Source: Microcoleus sp.
GTDB taxonomy: Bacteria; Cyanobacteriota; Cyanobacteriia; Cyanobacteriales; Microcoleaceae
NCBI GenBank assembly: GCA_042408215.1
Contig: JAYFMW010000006.1
Coordinates: forward strand, 736,001 to 800,000
Reading direction: 5' to 3'
DNA length: 64,000 nucleotides
The notes under the pieces were generated by a model. It was not told where the DNA came from, made no database searches, and saw only the letters and a program-made list of their open reading frames with translations. The position numbers and the translations under genes were made by a program. Shown here in pieces: positions 38,743 to 49,605 of the stretch (the stretch's first letter is position 1; each line of letters opens with the position of its first letter).

Positions 38743-39176
38743 GTCTGTAACGAGCGGGCTAAAGCCACTGAGCTTGTAAGAGCAATCGAATCAAGCTGTA
38801 CTGACCAGCTATCGTCTTAACTGACTACGTTATTTGAGTCACGACACTCCTTGAATGCGACGCTAGTTTTCCGCTCTGTCATGTACGGTTAAACAGTCTT
38901 AAAGTCACGCTCGACAGTGCCGTATGTCTAACAAGCTCTGATCGCAAAGGCGTGCGTCGCATTACCCCGCAAGGGAGGCTATAAGAGAGCACAGATTATG
39001 CGTACAGGATTGGAAGGTTTGAGGCGGTAACTGTCCCGTTGAAAGTACATCACAAAAGTACACCAAATCAAGCAATCCCAAGGCGGTAGTGGAAAGATTC
39101 AAGGCGGTTGAAACCGCCCGCGTCGTTTCCCTCTCTAGGCTGAAGCCACTGAGTTTCCCACTTACCGAGTATTTTT
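38743..39176 (+). mobile_element. ORF-less IscB-type element carrying a HEARO/omega-like RNA
   Basis: GACCAGC..CTACGTT..GACAC..GCTAGTT..CTCTGTC..GTTAAACAG..CAGTG..CATTACC motif order; GGCT(A/G)AAGCCACTGAG near both ends. Confidence 0.72.
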
Positions 39177-39992: not shown

Positions 39993-40406
39993 CAATCAAG
40001 CAATTGGGCCAGGAGCCCGCGGATTGAGCCGTGGGGTGAATTCTTCAATACGCATTTCCAGAAAAGCCTGTTTAGAAGAGGCAGGATACCTGTTTCACAA
40101 TAATTATTGGAGATGTCTAATGTAAAATCGAAAATCCATAAAACCCGGTTTCTGTGGGAGTAGAGAAAAAATTTTAACTCTGCCTTGTGGAAGATAGTCT
40201 TAATTGTTGACATACTCACCCCCGCTGAAGCAGCGGTGATTCTTGACGCTTCACTGACTGATGCTACCGAAGTAGTCTTACTCTGTCTCTGCGTCCTGAA
40301 GCGAGTCGTGGGTATGCCCTATCCCGACTTTTTCTATATTTTTCGCTGCATTTTCATCTCGATCGTGTTCAGTGCCACAATTCAAGCATTGAACCGATCG
40401 GATTTT

Positions 40407-41315
40407 TCAATCCAATTTTCCCCATTTGAAACCGCAATCCGAGCAGACTTGGCTAGTAGGTTCCCATCTGCTAACTACTTTGAACTCCCTGCCAAACTTC
40501 TCGGACTTAGCCTCACAGAGAGTCCTAAACTCTCTCCATCCTTGCTGACTAATGGCTCTTGATAATTTCCGATTCTTCACCATGCCTGACACATTCAAAT
40601 CTTCCAAAATAATAGTTTGGTTTTCACTAACAATTTTGGTAGATAATTTGTGCAGGAAATCTTTGCGGGTATCCGCAATTTGATTGTGCAGTTTAGCAAT
40701 CTGAATCCGAGTTCTATTTCTACGTTTCGAGTCTTTTTGCTGACGTGCCAACTTCTTTTGGAGTTTGCGAACTTTCCGGTCTAATTCCTTGTAGGAAAGA
40801 CTTTCACATCTCTCGCCATTGCTCATCACCGCAAAGGTTTTAATCCCTAAATCGATGCCGACACTTTGATTATTGGCTTCTACTTGGATTGGTTCAATCT
40901 CTACGACAAAACTTAAGAAATAGCGTTCGGCACAGTCTTTAATCACCGTGACAGAGCTAGGTGACGAAGGGAGATTTCTCGACCATATTGGATTAACAAT
41001 TCCAATCTTGGCTAAGTAAATACCATGATCTTTAAAGGAGAACCCTCCAATTCTAAAACGCGCCGATTGGTTATTTGTTCTTTTCTTGAATTTAGGATAA
41101 CCAACTTTACGACCTGGACGCTTTCCTTTGCAGGAGTTGAAAAAGTTTTTAAAAGCTATCTCTAAATCGGCAACTGACTGTTGCAGTGGAATATTTGAGA
41201 CCTCAGATAACCACGCACGTTCAGAGGTTAACTTAGCCTGAGTGATTACTAACTTTTGGAGTTCACTAGACTTTGGCTTTTTCCCTGACTGCTTGCAGAG
41301 AGCCTGAGCATCATT
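40407..41315 (-). pseudogene. tnpB: tnpB exon 2 with a premature TGA before the final zinc-finger/RuvC-III segment
   Basis: Open frame NDAQALCKQ...GIDLG..LEDL..CSDC..GKLD*; CLNC..HDRD continues in the same frame after the stop. Confidence 0.88.
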
Positions 41316-41424
41316 GTTAGAGTCGATAGAGGCATTTCTACCTCTACCTCTCTTTCAGAACGGAACGTGAAACTTTCGTCTCATTCCGCTCCTCGATATC
41401 TTCATCCTTTTTTATGGACACAAT

Positions 41425-43128
41425 TCAAAACGGATTGCTATGATAGTCCTTATCAAGGGAACCGTCATTTTCCGTTTTTGTGTCGTGACAGTGCTTATGT
41501 AGAAGTTGTAGGTTTTTATATTCATCCTTACCGCCTAGTGAGCGGGGTAGGATCTGGTCAACTTCTACAATGTCTGTAGGTGTGAAGTACAGACCGCAGT
41601 GGGTACATTTACCTTTTTGTGTCTTAAGTAGTGTTGCCACTCTTGTTGATGTTTCAGGGTATTCTCCACGTCTCTTGCTCCAATAAATCCAGTCACCGTC
41701 ATCAGGTGTTGAATTGCCCTTTACCTTTACGTGCCTTGTAATAGGCGTTGCTGAGTGTTGGGCTAGTTCTAAACCTTCTTGTGTGCTGAAACACCAATTT
41801 CTGTCGCCTACTGTTCGCCAGTATTTGTCTTTATTGATGCTACCTTTTCCCCGTCTACTAGCCCAGGCTCTTAATTTGTCGTAGGTAAGATGATCTATCT
41901 TACTAAAGATTTCCTTACTTACTACTGTTGAGTAATAGTTTGACCATCCCCTAATTATTGGATTTAGCCTACTTATTAAGGCATATTGGGGGGAGTGACT
42001 ATGGGTGTCTATTACCTTTTTGATTTGTAAGAGATGAGCTTTGGTTTTTGGTTGGGACGGGGTGATTAACGTTTTAAAACCTAGTGGTATTCCTTTTGTA
42101 TTATTGGTACTTCGGTAGTTTCCTACCTTGTATTGTTGTACAGGTCATCCTAAAAAATCAAACCCTACATTTCCGTTGTATTCGTTGAGGGTGTGGGTTA
42201 ATTTTGTTTTGCTTGGCTTTAATTCTAAGCCTAAATCACTTAACCAATCCGCAATTATCTTTTGACAGGCTATTACTACTTCGATGTCTTTGTGGATAAT
42301 CACAAAGTCATCTGCAGATCGGCTTAAACTAATTTCATTTCTTTGGTCTCTGCCATTTCCAACGAATTGTTTAACCCGTTCTTCCATTCCATGAAGGGCT
42401 ATGTTAGCCAAAAGTGGAGAAATTACTCCTCCTTGTGGCGTACCTTCTGTGGTCGGAAAAATTTCACCTTGGTCTAATACCCCACTTTTAAGCCACGATT
42501 TAATTTGTTTTCTTAATCGCGGATAGGTATTGATTTTGTCAAGTAATGCTTTGTGATTAATGCGGTCAAAGCATTTGGCAATATCAGCGTCTAGCACATA
42601 TTTAGCTTTTTGCTTGATACTGGTGAAAATAGCTTCTCTTGCATCGTGACACGACCTACCTGGTCTAAAACCATATGAGTTTGGCTCAAAGAGAGCTTCC
42701 CATTCTGGTTCAAGAGCTGCTTTAACAACTGCTTGTAAAGCGCGGTCGTACATAGTGGGTATGCCTAATGGTCTTGACTCATTGGTTCCTGGTTTTGGTA
42801 TCATTACCCGACGTGTCGGTTGTGATTTGCCAGTTGCTTTGAGTTGACTTACTAGCTCAAAGCGTTGCTTCGGAGACAATAATTTAATACCATCCACACC
42901 TGCTGTACGTTGGCCAGTATTATCTTGCGTGACCCGTCGTACCGCTAATACCTTATTAGACCATGAATTAATCAAGGTCTTCTGAAGCTTCCTCACTGCT
43001 TTTACATCGCCACGCTCACTTGATCGAGAGATACGTTTTTGCAACTTGAATGTCAATCTTTCGGCTTTTCGCCAATTAATTTGATTCCATTCCACCGTCG
43101 GGTTATCCCGCGTTTTAGACTTATTCAT
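41425..43128 (-). pseudogene. ltrA: Group II intron RT/maturase/HNH protein, inactivated
   Basis: AGVDG, RPLGIP, GTPQGG; YADD reads SADD; stop at 42145; HNH-like C-terminus CTHC..LHKHCH. Confidence 0.9.
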
Positions 43129-43789
43129 TGCTAAAGACAGTCCCTATCCTTGAAGTTATCGTGTATCTGTCTGCATATCTCTGTCATTACAACAGAGCAT
43201 TCGCTTCTGATACAATCCCTCTCTCATATATTATTCGTTAGCTACTTACTGGGTAATCGACCTATTTCCAGAAATATGTGAGAGTTAATTCGTTCCAAAT
43301 ACACATTGATTGAGTTTTTAGTGTGATGCTATCCACCGGGTTTATGGGCGGTGCTTATAGGTCGAGTCTGGAATCGCCTATGCCCTATCCTTGCCTTTTG
43401 GCTTGGTCTTAACCAGTCCTTACCATGTTTTTCAACGGTTTTATACTTGATTCAGCCGTTAGACCATTACGGGTTACGATGGTTCTGACACATCTTCGCT
43501 TTCGCTACACATGAACTCTTGCTCGACAGTTACCAGTTTCGGCTACCAGTGGTCTGCCTTTTATCCCCGCTTTATCCTGTTGGTTGCTATACAACAAAAT
43601 AGGGGATAGGCTTTTACCGCTGCACTTGCGGATTGGGACTAAGAATTATCTGCACCCAAAAGCGTATTTAGTTGTTATGGCTTGAGAGCCATAGCTTGTA
43701 AAAGTATAGTCATTTATTACAGTGCCGTGGGAGGCATGAAGTCCCTCCCCTTTCTTTTTTACTTCGAGCGGATTGACCCTTCTAAAGCT

Positions 43790-44988
43790 GAACTACGCAG
43801 CTCTCTATCCCATTGCACAAGGCATTTGGGATTGCTTTTCGCATAATATTGTAAGACCCATTAACATCGGCATTAATTAATTGACCGCAGGATGTTTTGT
43901 ACAATCCTCTCTTAATTAGTTGGCCACTAAATACCTTTTTTTGGGTATCACTATTCCCATAAACAGGGATCGGGTCTAGATTTAGGAAACTGGATTGAGA
44001 AGTATATGATTATTCCTGCACCATCACTCTTATTCCAACCAATACAGCCTTATATTCCAACATCTCAATTAATCGAGCATGAGGAACAGTTACGAAGTTC
44101 TGATTAGTTTTTTTTCCCAAATTAATCTCGTTTTTCCATTGTACATTTTTCCCTATTACCAGAGTCCCAATCTTTCCTGAACTTAAAAGATTGATGATGG
44201 AACGACTAGAGGAGTGCAAGTAATTATCGATTTTTTGGTTTCTACAACGAGTCAAGCGCTGAATCCTACGCGATGTTTTGCGACTCTCTTTCAATCGAGA
44301 TTGTAGCTGCACGCTTATTGTAAAATTGATTAATTGATTTCAGTGGTCGCCCGTTAATCAATAAAGGGACAAATCCCGGCTGATTTGAAGTTAGCGCCAC
44401 TAAATTATTCAATCCTAAATCAATACTAGCTACTAATTCTTTCTGATTTTCATCAATGGTGGACTCCGGCTCATCATAAATTACCTCAATTACATAAGAA
44501 TCACACTTAGGAACTAACCTAACTTGACAAATTTGCTCTGGTTTTACCAGGGTCTTAATCAAGATATTAGTCCCGGACAGATGGATAATTCCTTTCTTTA
44601 GTTGCTTGCTACTAATCGCCTGAATCGTATAGACGAGAATATTCCGACCCTTAACTTGATCTTTGTACTTGGGCAACTTTGGGCTACCAGTAAATTTTGT
44701 TGGCTCAATATTGTAAGCTTTAACGGCTTCAAAAAAAGATTTCCAATTCTTGTCTAATATCATCAAGATTTGTTGACTTACCTTGGCTGGTAAGTCCTTG
44801 TATGCTTGATGAGACTTCATCAAACGGTTCATTTCGTTGTAATTGATATAACCCCATCCATAGACAAAACTCTGACGAATAACGTAGTTAGCGACGTTGT
44901 AGAGATTTTTGGATTTAAAGGCTAATGCGTCAATTTCAACAAAACGATTCTCGGTGGATTTAATGATATGCCTCTCTGCTACTTGCAT
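43790..44988 (-). pseudogene. tnpB: Second TnpB (IS607-like type) with a frameshift and a stop; element spans about 43696-49160
   Basis: MQVAERHII, SIDLGLNN, GKNVQWK, NADVNGSYNI; frame break near 44290, stop at 44010. Confidence 0.82.
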
Positions 44989-45931
44989 TCAGACTCTCCA
45001 TTTTTTAACAATCGCAATAATTATCTCTGTTGAGCCTTCTGACTATATGATACTACCATTGCTTACTACTGCTTACAAACTTAACAATACTCCGGACAGT
45101 TTTTAAAGAGGAATGCGATCGCAATAAAATAGAGAAGTGAAAAAAGTGAGTGCAATCTCAACCCAAAATAAACAGAAAAAAAGGCACTCTTTTAGGTTAA
45201 GCTATAAAAACACAAAAGCTCAACAGATTGCATTAGGAAGATTATTGAATCCATCTTACAACAAATGCCGGGGATTAGTCAACCCCAAAAGAAGTTTTTA
45301 ATCACTTTATTTTCAACTATTTTGCTGGCCTATGGCAAGGTCAACTTCACGAATCTCAGTCGTTATAGCTGTTTGAGTGAAAAAACCTACCGTCGTCACT
45401 TTCTCAAAAGCTTTAACTTTCCACAATTTAATCAATATTTTCTCAAAGAAGCTTTAAACCCTGAACACACAATTATTGCTGTTATTGATTGTTCTTTTTT
45501 AAGAAAAAGCGGAAAACAAACTGATGGCAAGGCTTATTTTTATAATGGTGTAGCTGGTAAATCGGAACAGGGGTTGGAAATTTCTGTAATTTCTATTGTC
45601 GAAATTGAGACTCGTTTATCTTATATAGCAACCGCCTTGGCGGTTATGGTGTAAAGTGGAAGTAGTCTCTTATCCATTATGCTGTTTACCCGAGGGCACG
45701 ACTCATGCGAAAACCGTACAGTTATGACCTACGTCAGAAAGTCATTCAAGCTATCAAACTAGATGGCTTAAAGATTAGTGAAGCGAGTATACTATTCAGT
45801 ATCAGTTGCAACACAATCAGCTTATGGTTGAAGCGACAAACGGAAACAGGAGACTTTTTAGCATTACCGAATCAGCCTCGCGGTAACGGTCATAAAATTA
45901 CTGATTGGGAGAAGTTTCGTGAGTTTGTCAA

Positions 45932-47554
45932 TTGGAGTTTAGACTAAGCAGGTCAAAAAGTGTGATCGCTGTGAGACTAGCCAACAGTTCTCAAGAACGG
46001 CAATGGTCGCTGGCGACAAACTATCAGGCTCAACCATAAGATAGATGCCAGCGACCGTTGACGTTCTCGGAGACTTGCAACAGAAAAAAAACTGTCTGCG
46101 ATAGTTTCAACAGACAGCGTAAGGGTAGAAGATTGAAAATTCAGCTAAAAATCTCACATCTACCTGCCATGAAGTTTGAACAATTACGGGAATTTCGTCA
46201 ACAAGCTTATGAATGTCTCGGCAATGCCAAAGACGCCACCTTTGAACTAGCAGACGCGATAATGACGACTCGCCACGTCTCATGTTTAGGAGATTTAGCC
46301 CTCAATCCCTTATTTCGGCGTGAGTGGTCAAGCGTCTACGAAGCACTACAAGACTGTAGACCAGACCGAGACCAATTGATGCAACTATACATCCAACAGA
46401 TTTCAGAAGTAGAACGTCCAGTATTAGCGATGGATCATACGGCATGGTTGAGACCCCATGCACGTACCCTCAAAGAACGTACTTATGAACATCAACCCAC
46501 AGCCTTACCCGACGGTATACCTGTCGGCATCGGTCAGGGATATAGTACGATCGCACTGATACCTTCGATGAGCGGGAGTTGGGCGCTGCCCTTGAGACAC
46601 GAACGTATTACCAGTTGGGATAACCCAATCGGTAAAGGCGCTCAACAATTAGCACAAGTATGTGAATATCTTCAGCATAGACCGATCGCCTTATTTGATA
46701 GTGAGTATGGGTGCGCCCCTTTGGTTAAAGCCACCGCTGCGATCGCTGCTGATAAACTAATGCGTATTCGTTCTAATCGTTGCTTATGGTCAACACCCCC
46801 AGCCTATAGTGGTAGAGGACGGCCCAAAATTCACGGTCAACAGTTTAGGCTGAACGACTCTCAAAGCTGGTGGGAACCCGAACAAACTCTGGAATCTGTT
46901 GAACCCAAACTCGGAAAAATTCGGTTAAGAAAATGGGATGACTTGCATTTTCGAGGCCGTCCCAAACATCCAATGACCTTGATTTTAGTCGAACGTTTAG
47001 AAACTGTAACGGGTCGGTTAAATAGTCAACCTTTGTGGTTAGTATGGGTTGGTATCCAAATGCCATCTCTTAATGAAATTTGGCAACTATATCTACGTCG
47101 CTTTGCCCTCGAACATTGGTATCGGTTAGCTAAACAAACCTTACATTGGACTGTGCCGAAGCTAAGCACACCAGAACAGTGCGAACGATGGAGTGATTTG
47201 ATGCCATTAGTGACCTGGCAATTATGGTTAGCTAAAGATTTAGTCAAAGAAACTCGTCTACCCTGGCAAAAGTCTCTCTCTGAATTGACCCCGGTCAGGG
47301 TTGTACAATCAATGCTTCCACTTTTAATCAGGATTGGAAGTCCGGCTGTTGCTCCGAAACGGCGAGGAAATTCAGACGGATGGCAAACAGGAAAACCTCG
47401 CACTCCAAGATGTCGGTATCCTGTGGTCAAAAAGGGTAAAGGTCGGTTTCAACACTCGTCAAAATCGATTAGTTAACCTCTCTACCTCTGTCTAAACTCA
47501 CAAAATTTACACTCAACTTCTGCTGAGTGAATTTTTGCTTAGTCTAAACTCCAA
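45932..47554 (+). mobile_element. IS701-like element, innermost layer
   Basis: TIR TTGGAGTTTAGACTAAGCA; TTGTCAA duplication. Confidence 0.9.
46169..47476 (+). CDS. DDE transposase (IS701-like), open reading frame intact
   Basis: MDHTAW, FDSEYG, YLRRFALEHWYRLAKQ. Confidence 0.88.
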   Translation: MKFEQLREFRQQAYECLGNAKDATFELADAIMTTRHVSCLGDLALNPLFRREWSSVYEALQDCRPDRDQLMQLYIQQISEVERPVLAMDHTAWLRPHARTLKERTYEHQPTALPDGIPVGIGQGYSTIALIPSMSGSWALPLRHERITSWDNPIGKGAQQLAQVCEYLQHRPIALFDSEYGCAPLVKATAAIAADKLMRIRSNRCLWSTPPAYSGRGRPKIHGQQFRLNDSQSWWEPEQTLESVEPKLGKIRLRKWDDLHFRGRPKHPMTLILVERLETVTGRLNSQPLWLVWVGIQMPSLNEIWQLYLRRFALEHWYRLAKQTLHWTVPKLSTPEQCERWSDLMPLVTWQLWLAKDLVKETRLPWQKSLSELTPVRVVQSMLPLLIRIGSPAVAPKRRGNSDGWQTGKPRTPRCRYPVVKKGKGRFQHSSKSIS

Positions 47555-49208
47555 TTGTCAAGACTCATGGGGATAAAACTCAAGTTGAAATGGCCTCACT
47601 TTGGGATGGAGAAATTAGCGATCGCACAATCTCGCGGGCTTTGAAAAAAATTGGTTTTACTCGAAAAAAAAGACCTAGGGCTACCGGGCGCGGGCTGAAG
47701 TCAAAAGGCAGGCTTTTGTAACCGAATTGTCCACCATTCCCTCGGCTCAGATTGTCTATGTTGATGAATCTGGCATGGATAATAGAGACCAGTATGATTA
47801 TGGTTGGAACCCCGTCATGCCAACGGTTTCATGCACTCAAATCAGGGCGACGTGAGGATAGGGTAAATATGATTGCTGCTCTATGTAACCAAAAAATCCT
47901 CGCCCCTTTTACCTTTGTTGGAGCGTGTAATCGAACAGTTTTTGAAATTTGGCTAGAAACTTGTTTACTGCCAACACTTGTGACAGGACAGGTGGTAGTG
48001 ATGGATAATGCCACGTTTCATAAAGGTGGCAGAATTGAGGAATTAATTCAAAGTGTAGGGTGTAAATTGTTGTATTTACCGCCGTACTCCCCAGATTTGA
48101 ACAGAATTGAAAAATGCTGGTCGTGGCTCAAAAGTCGCATCCGCAAACAATTAGATCGGTTTGATTGTTTACGTGATGCGATCGAAGATCTTCTAGAGCT
48201 TGCATCCTAACCGCCAAGGCGGTTGCTATAGCTTAAGCGTACAACAAACTCCGTCACGCCCTCAAATAAAGCCCGTGAAAAAAATGCCCAAAAACCCGAA
48301 GAATAACCGCTCAAAAAAATCTCGCAAAAACCCGGACTCTCAAAGCTCAAAGCCTGACATCACAAGAGTTGATGACTATGCACAACATTTGAAGAATACT
48401 CGTTATTTTTGCCCCACTTCTGTACGTTATTTGGTGGCTGATGGCTATTACTATCGCTCTAAATTATGGGAGGCTGTGCGGGAGTTAAATTTAGACTTTA
48501 TTGGCAAGTTAAGAGTTGATGCTAACCTACGCTATCTCTATACAGGTGAACAAAATAGACTGGGAGCTCCTCGAAAATATGATGGTAAATTTGACTCTAA
48601 TGATTTGAGTCGTCTTAAATTTGTCAAAAATCTCAACCCGGGAGTTTCATTATATACATTGGTACTCTGGAGTTGTTGTTTAAATTGCCAGATTAGTTTG
48701 GCTTGTATTTCTGAGGTTCAAGCTAACGGTAAAATCAAAAATGCGTTATTGTTTAGCACTGATATTCACCTACTGCCTGAGCAAATTCTTGAATATTATC
48801 AGGCTCGTTTCCAGATTGAATTTATTTTTCGTGATGCCAAGCAATTTACGGGATTGTCTGATTGTCAAGCTCGTCATTTACCACGGCTTGATTTTCATTT
48901 TAATGCCAGTCTAATTGCCTTAAACTTAGCTAAACATGAACTCTCTATTTGTCATTCATCTGCCAAATCGTTTGTGTTTTCTATGGCTTATTATAAACGT
49001 CTCGAATTCAATCAGCATCTACTTTCTACCTTTATTGATAAGTTAGATTTAGACCCGGATTTGATTTTAAATCACCCTAACCTTCCTTCAGTCTTGTCTT
49101 ATGGTACTCTGGCTGCTTAAAAACTGTCCGGAGTATTGAACTTAATAAAGTTTTATAATACTAGCCGTCCCTAAGTATCACTACTCATTTAGGCTAAACG
49201 AATCGCAC

Positions 49209-49298
49209 CCAGACTACCCGAACACAACCAAACAACTGAGCTAAGCTCTGTTGTTGCTGGTCGGTTGGGTAGAAGCGGTACTGATACCTAGCTTTCAT
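49209..49298 (-). pseudogene. tnpB: tnpB exon 1 (30 codons)
   Basis: MKARYQYRFYPTDQQQQSLAQLFGCVRVVW joins exon 2 in frame. Confidence 0.9.
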
Positions 49299-49351
49299 AA
49301 TCTTTGTTTTGTACTATTGTATTAGTATACCAATATCTACAAGAATTTGCA

Positions 49352-49525
49352 ATGCCATTCAGAAAAAAACACAAACTAGGTTTTACCAGCAAAGATCCTT
49401 TAGACAGAAATCCTATCTGCTTTAAGGTTAGAGAAGGTGTGCGAAAAAAGCTGATGGCTATCCCTGACTGGCAGAAACTACTCAGAGAGTATGTAGATAG
49501 TCTGACAGAAGAAAAGCCGTCCTGA
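49352..49525 (+). CDS. Small basic protein inside the IS left end, divergent from tnpB (possibly RHH-like)
   Basis: 57 aa, MPFRKKHKLGF..ICFKV..WQKLLREYVD. Confidence 0.55.
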   Translation: MPFRKKHKLGFTSKDPLDRNPICFKVREGVRKKLMAIPDWQKLLREYVDSLTEEKPS

Positions 49526-49605
49526 AAGGACGGGGATTGAATCCCATTCTTTTGGTCAATTTTTGGGATAATAGAAATAGCACTCAACTTAGCTGAGGAA
49601 CAAAC

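What the first reader, a model, noticed from the sequence alone, without database searches (positions are those of the whole stretch)
41316..49298. Group II intron whose EBS loops match a conserved site in tnpB
Seen: the intron splits tnpB between codons W30 and N31 (..CGGGTAGTCTGG|AAT). The predicted EBS1 loop (plus strand AGTCTGGAAT from 43365) is complementary to the ligated junction, and the predicted EBS2 (43470-43474) matches CGGGT at -12 to -8. Known: EBS-IBS pairing determines retrohoming targets. Inference: this intron lineage is adapted to the N-terminal helix coding region of multicopy tnpB. It would be a parasite of an RNA-guided transposon, able to spread with it and to make TnpB expression depend on splicing.
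Basis: partly seen in the sequence, partly recalled or inferred. Interest (0 to 1): 0.72.

Follow-up and report, generated by a model that had tools for sequence, protein, structure and literature searches.

The report
Dead intron at shared tnpB site
A self-splicing mobile intron, now dead, sits precisely inside the RNA-guided nuclease gene of a small cyanobacterial transposon; its own relatives do not favour this spot, but an unrelated intron in another cyanobacterial genus has settled on exactly the same spot many times.

Summary
A group IIB intron (49208-41316, minus strand; 2,426 nt once a 5.5-kb stack of four nested IS elements is removed) splits an IS605-type tnpB at W30|N31. The copy is dead: domain I is interrupted, the RT has SADD and a stop, and tnpB has a stop.

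The lineage claim fails for this intron. Its 9 closest relatives carry other EBS sequences at other sites, 55 homologs show 50 different EBS1, and 7 well-matched empty tnpB copies in the genome are unoccupied.

An unrelated intron in two Microseira genomes occupies the identical junction at 8 of 8 5' ends, in tnpB genes 44-94% alike, and its EBS sequences vary with synonymous codons. One origin with the window intron is rejected (p-AU 2e-47), so two lineages converged on one bond that is only averagely conserved. Introns homing into IS elements are known (RmInt1, TeI3 F4), and the scan has noted introns in tnpB on other DNA before.

The parts
40207..49554 (-). Host IS200/IS605-family element, tnpB only (no tnpA); left end follows TTGAC at 49559-49555, right end ends GTCAA at 40207
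   Evidence: End motifs and hairpins; copies align from 40207; a contig of run X14 joins 40198 to 49554 with 7 letters between, i.e. the empty site
49209..49298 (-). tnpB exon 1, codons 1-30 (ends ...CVRVVW); carries IBS1 (-1..-6), IBS2 (-9..-13), IBS2a (-14)
   Evidence: Pfam PF12323 positions 1-31, E 8.5e-14
40407..41315 (-). tnpB exon 2 from N31 to a premature TGA inside the zinc finger, ahead of the DRDENAA motif
   Evidence: PF01385, PF07282; TGA against a Leu codon in intact copy C1
49158..49208 (-). Intron 5' piece (51 nt, starts GTGCG)
   Evidence: Aligns with intact paralogs on C17 and C30
43691..49157 (-). Nested element 1: multicopy tnpB-only IS (frameshifted tnpB 44010-44988) inserted in intron domain I; removing it restores a 7-bp stem
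   Evidence: Shared ends in 11 genome copies examined; PF01385; fold
45085..49138 (+). Nested element 2: DDE transposase IS with terminal inverted repeats and a 7-bp duplication, inside the left end of element 1
   Evidence: Sequence; PF13546 and PF01609 pieces
45624..48231 (+). Nested element 3: IS630-family element (ends approximate)
   Evidence: PF01710, PF13358; 99-100% copies on C27 and C30
45925..47554 (+). Nested element 4: DDE_5 transposase IS (472-aa ORF 46058-47476), ends within about 7 nt
   Evidence: PF13546; 99.8% copy on C30; joint 45924-47555 in all four runs
41316..43690 (-). Intron 3' piece: rest of domain I to domain VI
   Evidence: RF00029 at 41393-41316, 63.1 bits; 72% to two paralogs
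43366..43371 (-). EBS1 (CCAGAC) in the 8-nt d3 loop; pairs 6 of 6 with exon -1..-6
   Evidence: Fold; covariation; pairing table
43469..43475 (-). EBS2 (43473-43469, 4 of 5 paired with -9..-13) and EBS2a (43475, pairs with -14)
   Evidence: Covariation; geometry as described in PMC8643678
43331..43331 (-). Likely EBS3 (T, pairs with A at +1); weaker evidence
   Evidence: 17 of 29 Watson-Crick against 33% expected; some 3' ends were called imprecisely
41425..43128 (-). Intron-encoded RT/maturase/HNH protein, inactivated: SADD for YADD and in-frame TGA at 42147-42145
   Evidence: PF13655, PF00078, PF01844; translation; best PDB match 6ME0, E 1.4e-69

Best explanation
The window holds a single dead copy of a cyanobacterial chloroplast-like group IIB intron. 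Its lineage retargets readily: EBS loops mutate, and each variant reverse-splices into whatever site fits (covariation shown; reverse splicing inferred from established group II biology). One variant fitted the GC-x-R-V-V-W|N codons of IS605 tnpB and inserted in sense and in phase 0, so splicing would have restored the frame (shown by ligation). Insertion in a dispensable multicopy element was tolerated (inferred). The copy then decayed through four nested IS insertions and RT and tnpB mutations, and did not spread (shown). Independently, an unrelated intron in Microseira became a true specialist of the same junction: it occupies divergent tnpB subfamilies while its EBS sequences drift with synonymous codons (occupancy shown; retrohoming inferred). 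The site is a recurrent landing place, and the window copy is a one-off visitor to it.
For: EBS covariation. 50 EBS1 types in 55 homologs, the window's type once. Nine closest relatives at other sites. A relative about 91% alike in run X14 differs in EBS1, and that run shows other flanks at the intron 5' end. Seven empty matching tnpB copies, including the best site in the genome. Inactivating lesions. Microseira type: 8 of 8 5' ends at the junction; 8 of 9 3' ends followed by tnpB, 7 from profile position 47, and the 9th cut by a contig end; hosts 44-94% alike; three EBS sets CCAAAC/CGCGC, CCAAAC/CCCGG and CCAGAC/CACGC, each pairing at 11 or 12 of 12 exon positions with its own host. RT proteins 60% identical; one clade rejected, p-AU 2.25e-47 on 21 rows; domain I identity 57% against 54% for shuffles.
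Against: Sampling is incomplete: one genome per species, only 99 introns examined out of about 309 family pattern matches plus order hits, and the all-genome scan stopped at 120 rows. The window intron could belong to a small specialist sublineage not sampled. All three full-length introns of this group in G000 sit in tnpB elements, at three different places, which hints at a general tnpB preference. Three of 5 hosts in G517 and the metagenome copy L172 pair poorly with the one EBS set assembled there (L172, L201, L205: EBS2 2 of 5; L203, L209: EBS1 3 of 6), so recombination between copies or collapsed assembly may account for some Microseira junctions. Nucleotide conservation does not explain the convergence.
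Confidence: 0.72

Rival explanations
1. One reading: the window intron belongs to a sublineage specialised for this tnpB codon that spreads with the transposon; its other members are not yet sampled.
For: 12 of 13 pairing, and the best-fitting site in the genome is an empty tnpB copy. The same locus occurs in contigs of three other studies. An unrelated lineage shows such specialists exist.
Against: One copy only and 7 matching targets empty. No second case in 144 family genomes or among close kin in 401 order genomes. Nearest relatives use other EBS sequences. No occupied IS copy was seen at a second locus in G000.
Confidence: 0.13
2. The junction is a mechanistic hot spot: something beyond EBS pairing (DNA opening near the IS left end or promoter, protein contacts, or selection for an early phase-0 insertion that spares the 3' omega-RNA) draws introns to it.
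For: Two unrelated introns use the same bond though it is only median in nucleotide conservation. Some Microseira hosts pair poorly with the assembled EBS set. A third intron sits 4-5 codons downstream (L229).
Against: Other related introns sit at 5 other positions inside tnpB, spread over the gene. The search was aimed at this junction after the fact, so one coincidence among many tnpB-resident lineages is not very unlikely. No mechanism was tested.
Confidence: 0.12
3. The window intron took its EBS loops from a Microseira-type intron by recombination, so the match is inherited and not convergent.
For: The EBS sets are nearly the same.
Against: Domain I scaffolds align barely above shuffled controls (57% against a maximum of 56%), and the stems around both loops are those of the window's own lineage.
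Confidence: 0.03

Closest known systems
TeI3 family F4 introns of Thermosynechococcus elongatus (PMC2882425; passages and section 10 read)
   Same: Cyanobacterial IIB introns whose EBS families diverged; F4 has three copies at one conserved site in ISEL1, an IS200-family element.
   Different: F4 introns are ORF-less; the text read does not say which gene or codon of ISEL1 is hit, and I did not check whether it is this junction. The window copy is single and dead.
RmInt1 in ISRm2011-2 of Sinorhizobium meliloti (PMC4238363 abstract; search listing)
   Same: An intron homing to a site in a multicopy IS, with its splicing limiting expression of the host element's gene.
   Different: Endonuclease-less intron of another class; the host gene is a transposase (IS630 family, recalled), not an RNA-guided nuclease.
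Group II introns 'hiding' in mobile elements (PMC7306698; parts 1-3 of 4 and rows of Table S3 read)
   Same: Table S3 lists cyanobacterial CL2 introns next to same-strand IS605 OrfB (COG0675) features in Microcystis, Dactylococcopsis, Oscillatoria and Trichodesmium.
   Different: Neighbourhood level only in the parts read; no codon-level site, no EBS analysis, no convergence.
IStrons (PMC4227781 and 10.1101/2023.11.20.567912; search listings only)
   Same: Intron and IS605/IS607 tnpB elements combined.
   Different: Group I ribozyme fused with the IS as one unit that splices out whole; here a group II retroelement interrupts tnpB.

Membership tests
Group II intron | GUGYG 5' end, AY 3' end, catalytic domain V and domain VI | tested here: met
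   Ends at 49208 and 41316; RF00029 63.1 bits, cut-off 40; the DV triad reads AGC
Subgroup IIB | EBS1 6 bp, EBS2 5 bp, EBS2a pairing with -14 | tested here: met
   Covariation in 55 homologs, layout as in PMC8643678
Subgroup IIB | EBS3 pairing with +1 of the 3' exon | tested here: inconclusive
   Best column 17 of 29 Watson-Crick; some 3' ends imprecise
Chloroplast-like (CL) class | RT-maturase-HNH protein of about 600 aa related to CL proteins | tested here: met
   RVT_N, RVT_1, HNH; best PDB match T. elongatus maturase 6ME0, E 1.4e-69, next 3.3e-35
CL2 / IIB2 versus CL1 / IIB1 | Placement among reference CL1 and CL2 proteins | not tested
   No reference set was included; CL2 is likely from a recalled 5' consensus and from its cyanobacterial range (PMC8919778 passages)
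Active retrohoming intron | Open IEP with YADD and uninterrupted ribozyme | tested here: not met
   SADD, TGA at 42147-42145, 5.5 kb of IS in domain I
IS-specialist intron lineage (RmInt1 / TeI3 F4 type): window intron | Several members at one site in different IS copies | tested here: not met
   One occupied site and 7 empty tnpB targets; 0 of 9 closest relatives
IS-specialist intron lineage: Microseira-type intron | Several members at one site in different IS copies | tested here: met
   8 of 8 5' ends and 8 of 9 3' ends in tnpB at the junction; copies lie at contig ends
IS200/IS605 tnpB-only element (host) | TnpB domains, hairpin ends, no inverted repeats, no tnpA | tested here: met
IS200/IS605 tnpB-only element (host) | Functional TnpB and omega-RNA | tested here: not met
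   Premature TGA; omega-RNA not tested

The most novel reading that the evidence does not exclude
The W30|N31 junction of IS605 tnpB is a privileged homing site that at least two unrelated cyanobacterial group II introns reached independently, for a reason other than sequence abundance. In Microseira a live intron family tracks it across tnpB subfamilies by re-tuning its EBS loops to synonymous codons, so that TnpB protein depends on splicing while the 3' omega-RNA region stays intact.
Probability: 0.22. Interest if true: 0.62.

Novelty: new member of a known kind. Interest (0 to 1): 0.38.

Why it matters
The window copy is an ordinary relic. The useful part is the comparison. It gives a natural case of two retroelements evolving almost the same guide loops to hit one codon junction of an RNA-guided nuclease gene, and a candidate live family in Microseira wollei (RT pieces open, YADD intact) in which EBS drift, host range among tnpB subfamilies and splicing control of TnpB can be tested. 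It also matters for annotation: tnpB genes split 30 codons from the start will be called as fragments.

Tried and rejected
1. Conservation as the cause of convergence. W|N ranked about 662nd of 1,188 junctions among 41 tnpB clusters; among 17 HTH-type clusters, 586 and 313 junctions scored higher under two strict rules. Rejected for this genome's tnpB set. The wobble rule favours A-rich sites.

2. The 10-nt EBS1 pairing across the junction: rejected; the extra bases are stem or near-invariant.

3. Nt 398 as EBS3: 10 of 29, rejected in favour of nt 411. Scores used nt 274 and 398 where 267 and 411 are right; the bases are the same, so scores stand.

4. Site scans. Genome collection: 120 rows, truncated, mostly chance; 4 loci were tnpB junctions, all Microseira. 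Metagenomes: 1 of 41 loci (L172). Viral contigs: 0 of 3. L210 and L213 are not tnpB. Plasmids: no occupied junction with the L172 query; the 23 plasmid hits of the window query were not examined further.

5. Relatives of the Microseira type among 401 phylum genomes: 12 genomes matched; 13 intron 5' ends were located in the 16 loci (some belong to neighbouring introns), none in tnpB. The specialist habit looks confined to that genus in the sample.

6. The first site count used a mis-spaced pattern and was discarded. The 58-row tree was a quick tree with an unfinished clade test and some mis-assigned rows from nested introns; the test was run on 21 chosen rows.

7. Splicing evidence: no joint 41315-49209 among the joints listed (17 not shown); contigs cannot show absence, and the RNA run held a relative, not this copy.

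8. Literature. Searches listed no paper on a group II intron at this tnpB codon; PMC7923331 and PMC10055086 passages were not relevant. Supplements of PMC2882425 and PMC8643678 were not read and may list such sites.

Full report
Anatomy. The window is G000:C6:736001-800000, from a cyanobacterium to judge by its relatives. A tnpB-only IS200/IS605 element spans 49554-40207 on the minus strand. Its tnpB is split after codon 30 by a group II intron from 49208 to 41316. Ligated exons are in frame, both match TnpB Pfam models, and 5 uninterrupted genome copies align across exactly this break. Contigs from three other DNA studies bridge the junctions, so the structure is not an assembly error.

The copy is dead. 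The intron is 2,426 nt once 43691-49157 is removed. That stretch is a stack of four IS elements inserted after intron nt 51. The intron protein has SADD for YADD and an in-frame TGA. The host tnpB has a TGA inside the zinc finger where intact copy C1 has Leu.

EBS loops. I aligned domain I of 55 related introns with distinct 5' exons (from 58 with at least 68% identity and enough sequence). For exon positions -1..-6 the best covarying columns were nt 371-376, for -9..-13 nt 269-273, and for -14 nt 267. The last fits the EBS2a-IBS2a pair of PMC8643678. Positions -7 and -8 have no partner. The window pairs 6 of 6, 4 of 5 and 1 of 1, and probably EBS3 as well.

Is the lineage adapted to tnpB? I examined 99 distinct related intron 5' ends, taken from 80 fetched regions, 29 earlier loci and 2 extra loci; this is a part of about 309 family pattern matches plus order hits. 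The 9 closest (84-89%) all have other EBS sequences and lie outside tnpB. There are 50 different EBS1 sequences in 55 homologs, and the window's occurs once. None of the 99 is at W30|N31. Six lie inside a tnpB coding region, at 5 positions (profile about 50, 159, 168, 183, and 373 twice). Four more lie at tnpB edges or in truncated copies and two are antisense neighbours. Pfam confirmed the tnpB for L229, L231, L303, L266, L273, L276, L287, L307 and L308; L230, L236 and L295 rest on my own profile. tnpB-like ORFs cover 3.8% of G000, so enrichment is modest and kin are not independent. Against this, all three full-length introns of the group in G000 are in tnpB elements, each at a different place with its own matching EBS.

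No spread in this genome. The best-fitting site in G000 is an empty tnpB copy (C6:442777, 12.5 of 13). Seven empty tnpB copies score 10.5 or more, among 158 such sites in all. The junction pattern found tnpB only in G000 among 144 family genomes (9 matches).

A second lineage at the same bond. The genome-collection scan, cut at 120 rows, found 4 loci in Microseira sp. BLCC-F43 and M. wollei NIES-4236 with an intron at the same codon; the metagenome scan found 1 more among 41 loci (L172). In the two genomes 8 of 8 exact-type 5' ends follow a CVRxV(W/Y) motif; a ninth match with 2 mismatches is another intron elsewhere. Eight of 9 3' ends are followed by tnpB, all 8 beginning with an Asn codon, and the ninth is cut by a contig end. 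The 5' exons are 44-94% alike. Three assembled domain I copies carry three different EBS sets, each fitting its own host at 11 or 12 of 12 positions counting one G-U pair. M. wollei RT pieces are open with YADD; the BLCC-F43 and L172 copies carry stops. In 401 order genomes the occupied junction was seen only in G000 and in these two genomes, counted once.

Independent origin. The two RTs are 60% identical. The window RT nests among non-tnpB introns on starred branches, and holding it with the Microseira type costs 83.4 log-likelihood units (p-AU 2.25e-47; quick tree, 21 of 58 rows). Domain I aligns at 57% against 54% for shuffles. Convergence is the simplest reading.

Caveats. Microseira copies lie at contig ends, and several hosts pair poorly with the single EBS set assembled in BLCC-F43, so recombination or collapse may contribute. 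The junction is of median nucleotide conservation among G000 tnpB genes, so target abundance does not explain the convergence. I searched for this site after the fact.

Mechanism. Shown: EBS-IBS fit, in-frame phase-0 insertion, decay, repeated occupancy in Microseira. From established biology: reverse splicing guided by EBS pairs, and tolerance of insertions in mobile elements (PMC2882425, PMC7306698). Inferred: an EBS variant arose first and then homed; an early insertion lets the intron be transcribed from the IS promoter and leaves the 3' omega-RNA region whole. Not shown: splicing in vivo, or transposition of an intron-bearing IS.

Known or new. Introns homing to one site of a multicopy IS are known: TeI3 F4 in IS200-family ISEL1 and RmInt1, including control of the host element by splicing. 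CL2 introns beside IS605 OrfB appear in a published table. Searches listed nothing on this codon or on convergence; most subscription papers are not in the library. Earlier scan notes report introns in tnpB on other DNA; they are leads only.

Verdict. Real, a new member of a known kind, interest 0.38. The window copy alone would score lower; the convergence with the Microseira specialist is what merits follow-up.

Noticed in passing
G000 C17:622600-625078 and C30:354040-356487: Two paralogous full-length introns (72%) also sit in tnpB elements: one in the last codons, the presumed omega-RNA region, the other near codon 45 of a different tnpB; each has EBS loops fitting its own flank.
   Followed up: partly
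window 2294 onward (minus strand) and four other G000 places: Five copies of an ORF-less intron of about 775 nt, at sites with a shared 5' flank, with near-identical relatives in other genomes; possibly mobilised in trans.
   Followed up: partly
L230 and L231 (G407): Two introns end their 5' exons at the same NA[AS]xN codon of the RuvC-III motif in two divergent tnpB genes: a candidate second specialist site.
   Followed up: partly
L229 (G407) and L276 (G435): One intron 4-5 codons downstream of W30 in a tnpB; one short ORF-less intron about 9 nt before the start of an intact tnpB.
   Followed up: partly
window 49352-49525 (+): A 57-aa divergent ORF inside the host IS left region, where tnpA would be; no Pfam match, 3 homologs in G000.
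   Followed up: partly
window 38743-38965 (+): HEARO RNA match, 84.5 bits against a cut-off of 83.
   Followed up: no
run X14 laid on window 41323-43336: An ice metatranscriptome holds a relative about 91% alike, with a different EBS1, at very high contig depth; DNA in the library is not excluded.
   Followed up: no
L274, L249: The closest relatives interrupt an NRPS condensation domain and lie at the start of a dnaK reading frame.
   Followed up: no
L338/L339 (G194:C67), L302: Tandem head-to-tail introns, the second inserted right at the 3' end of the first.
   Followed up: no
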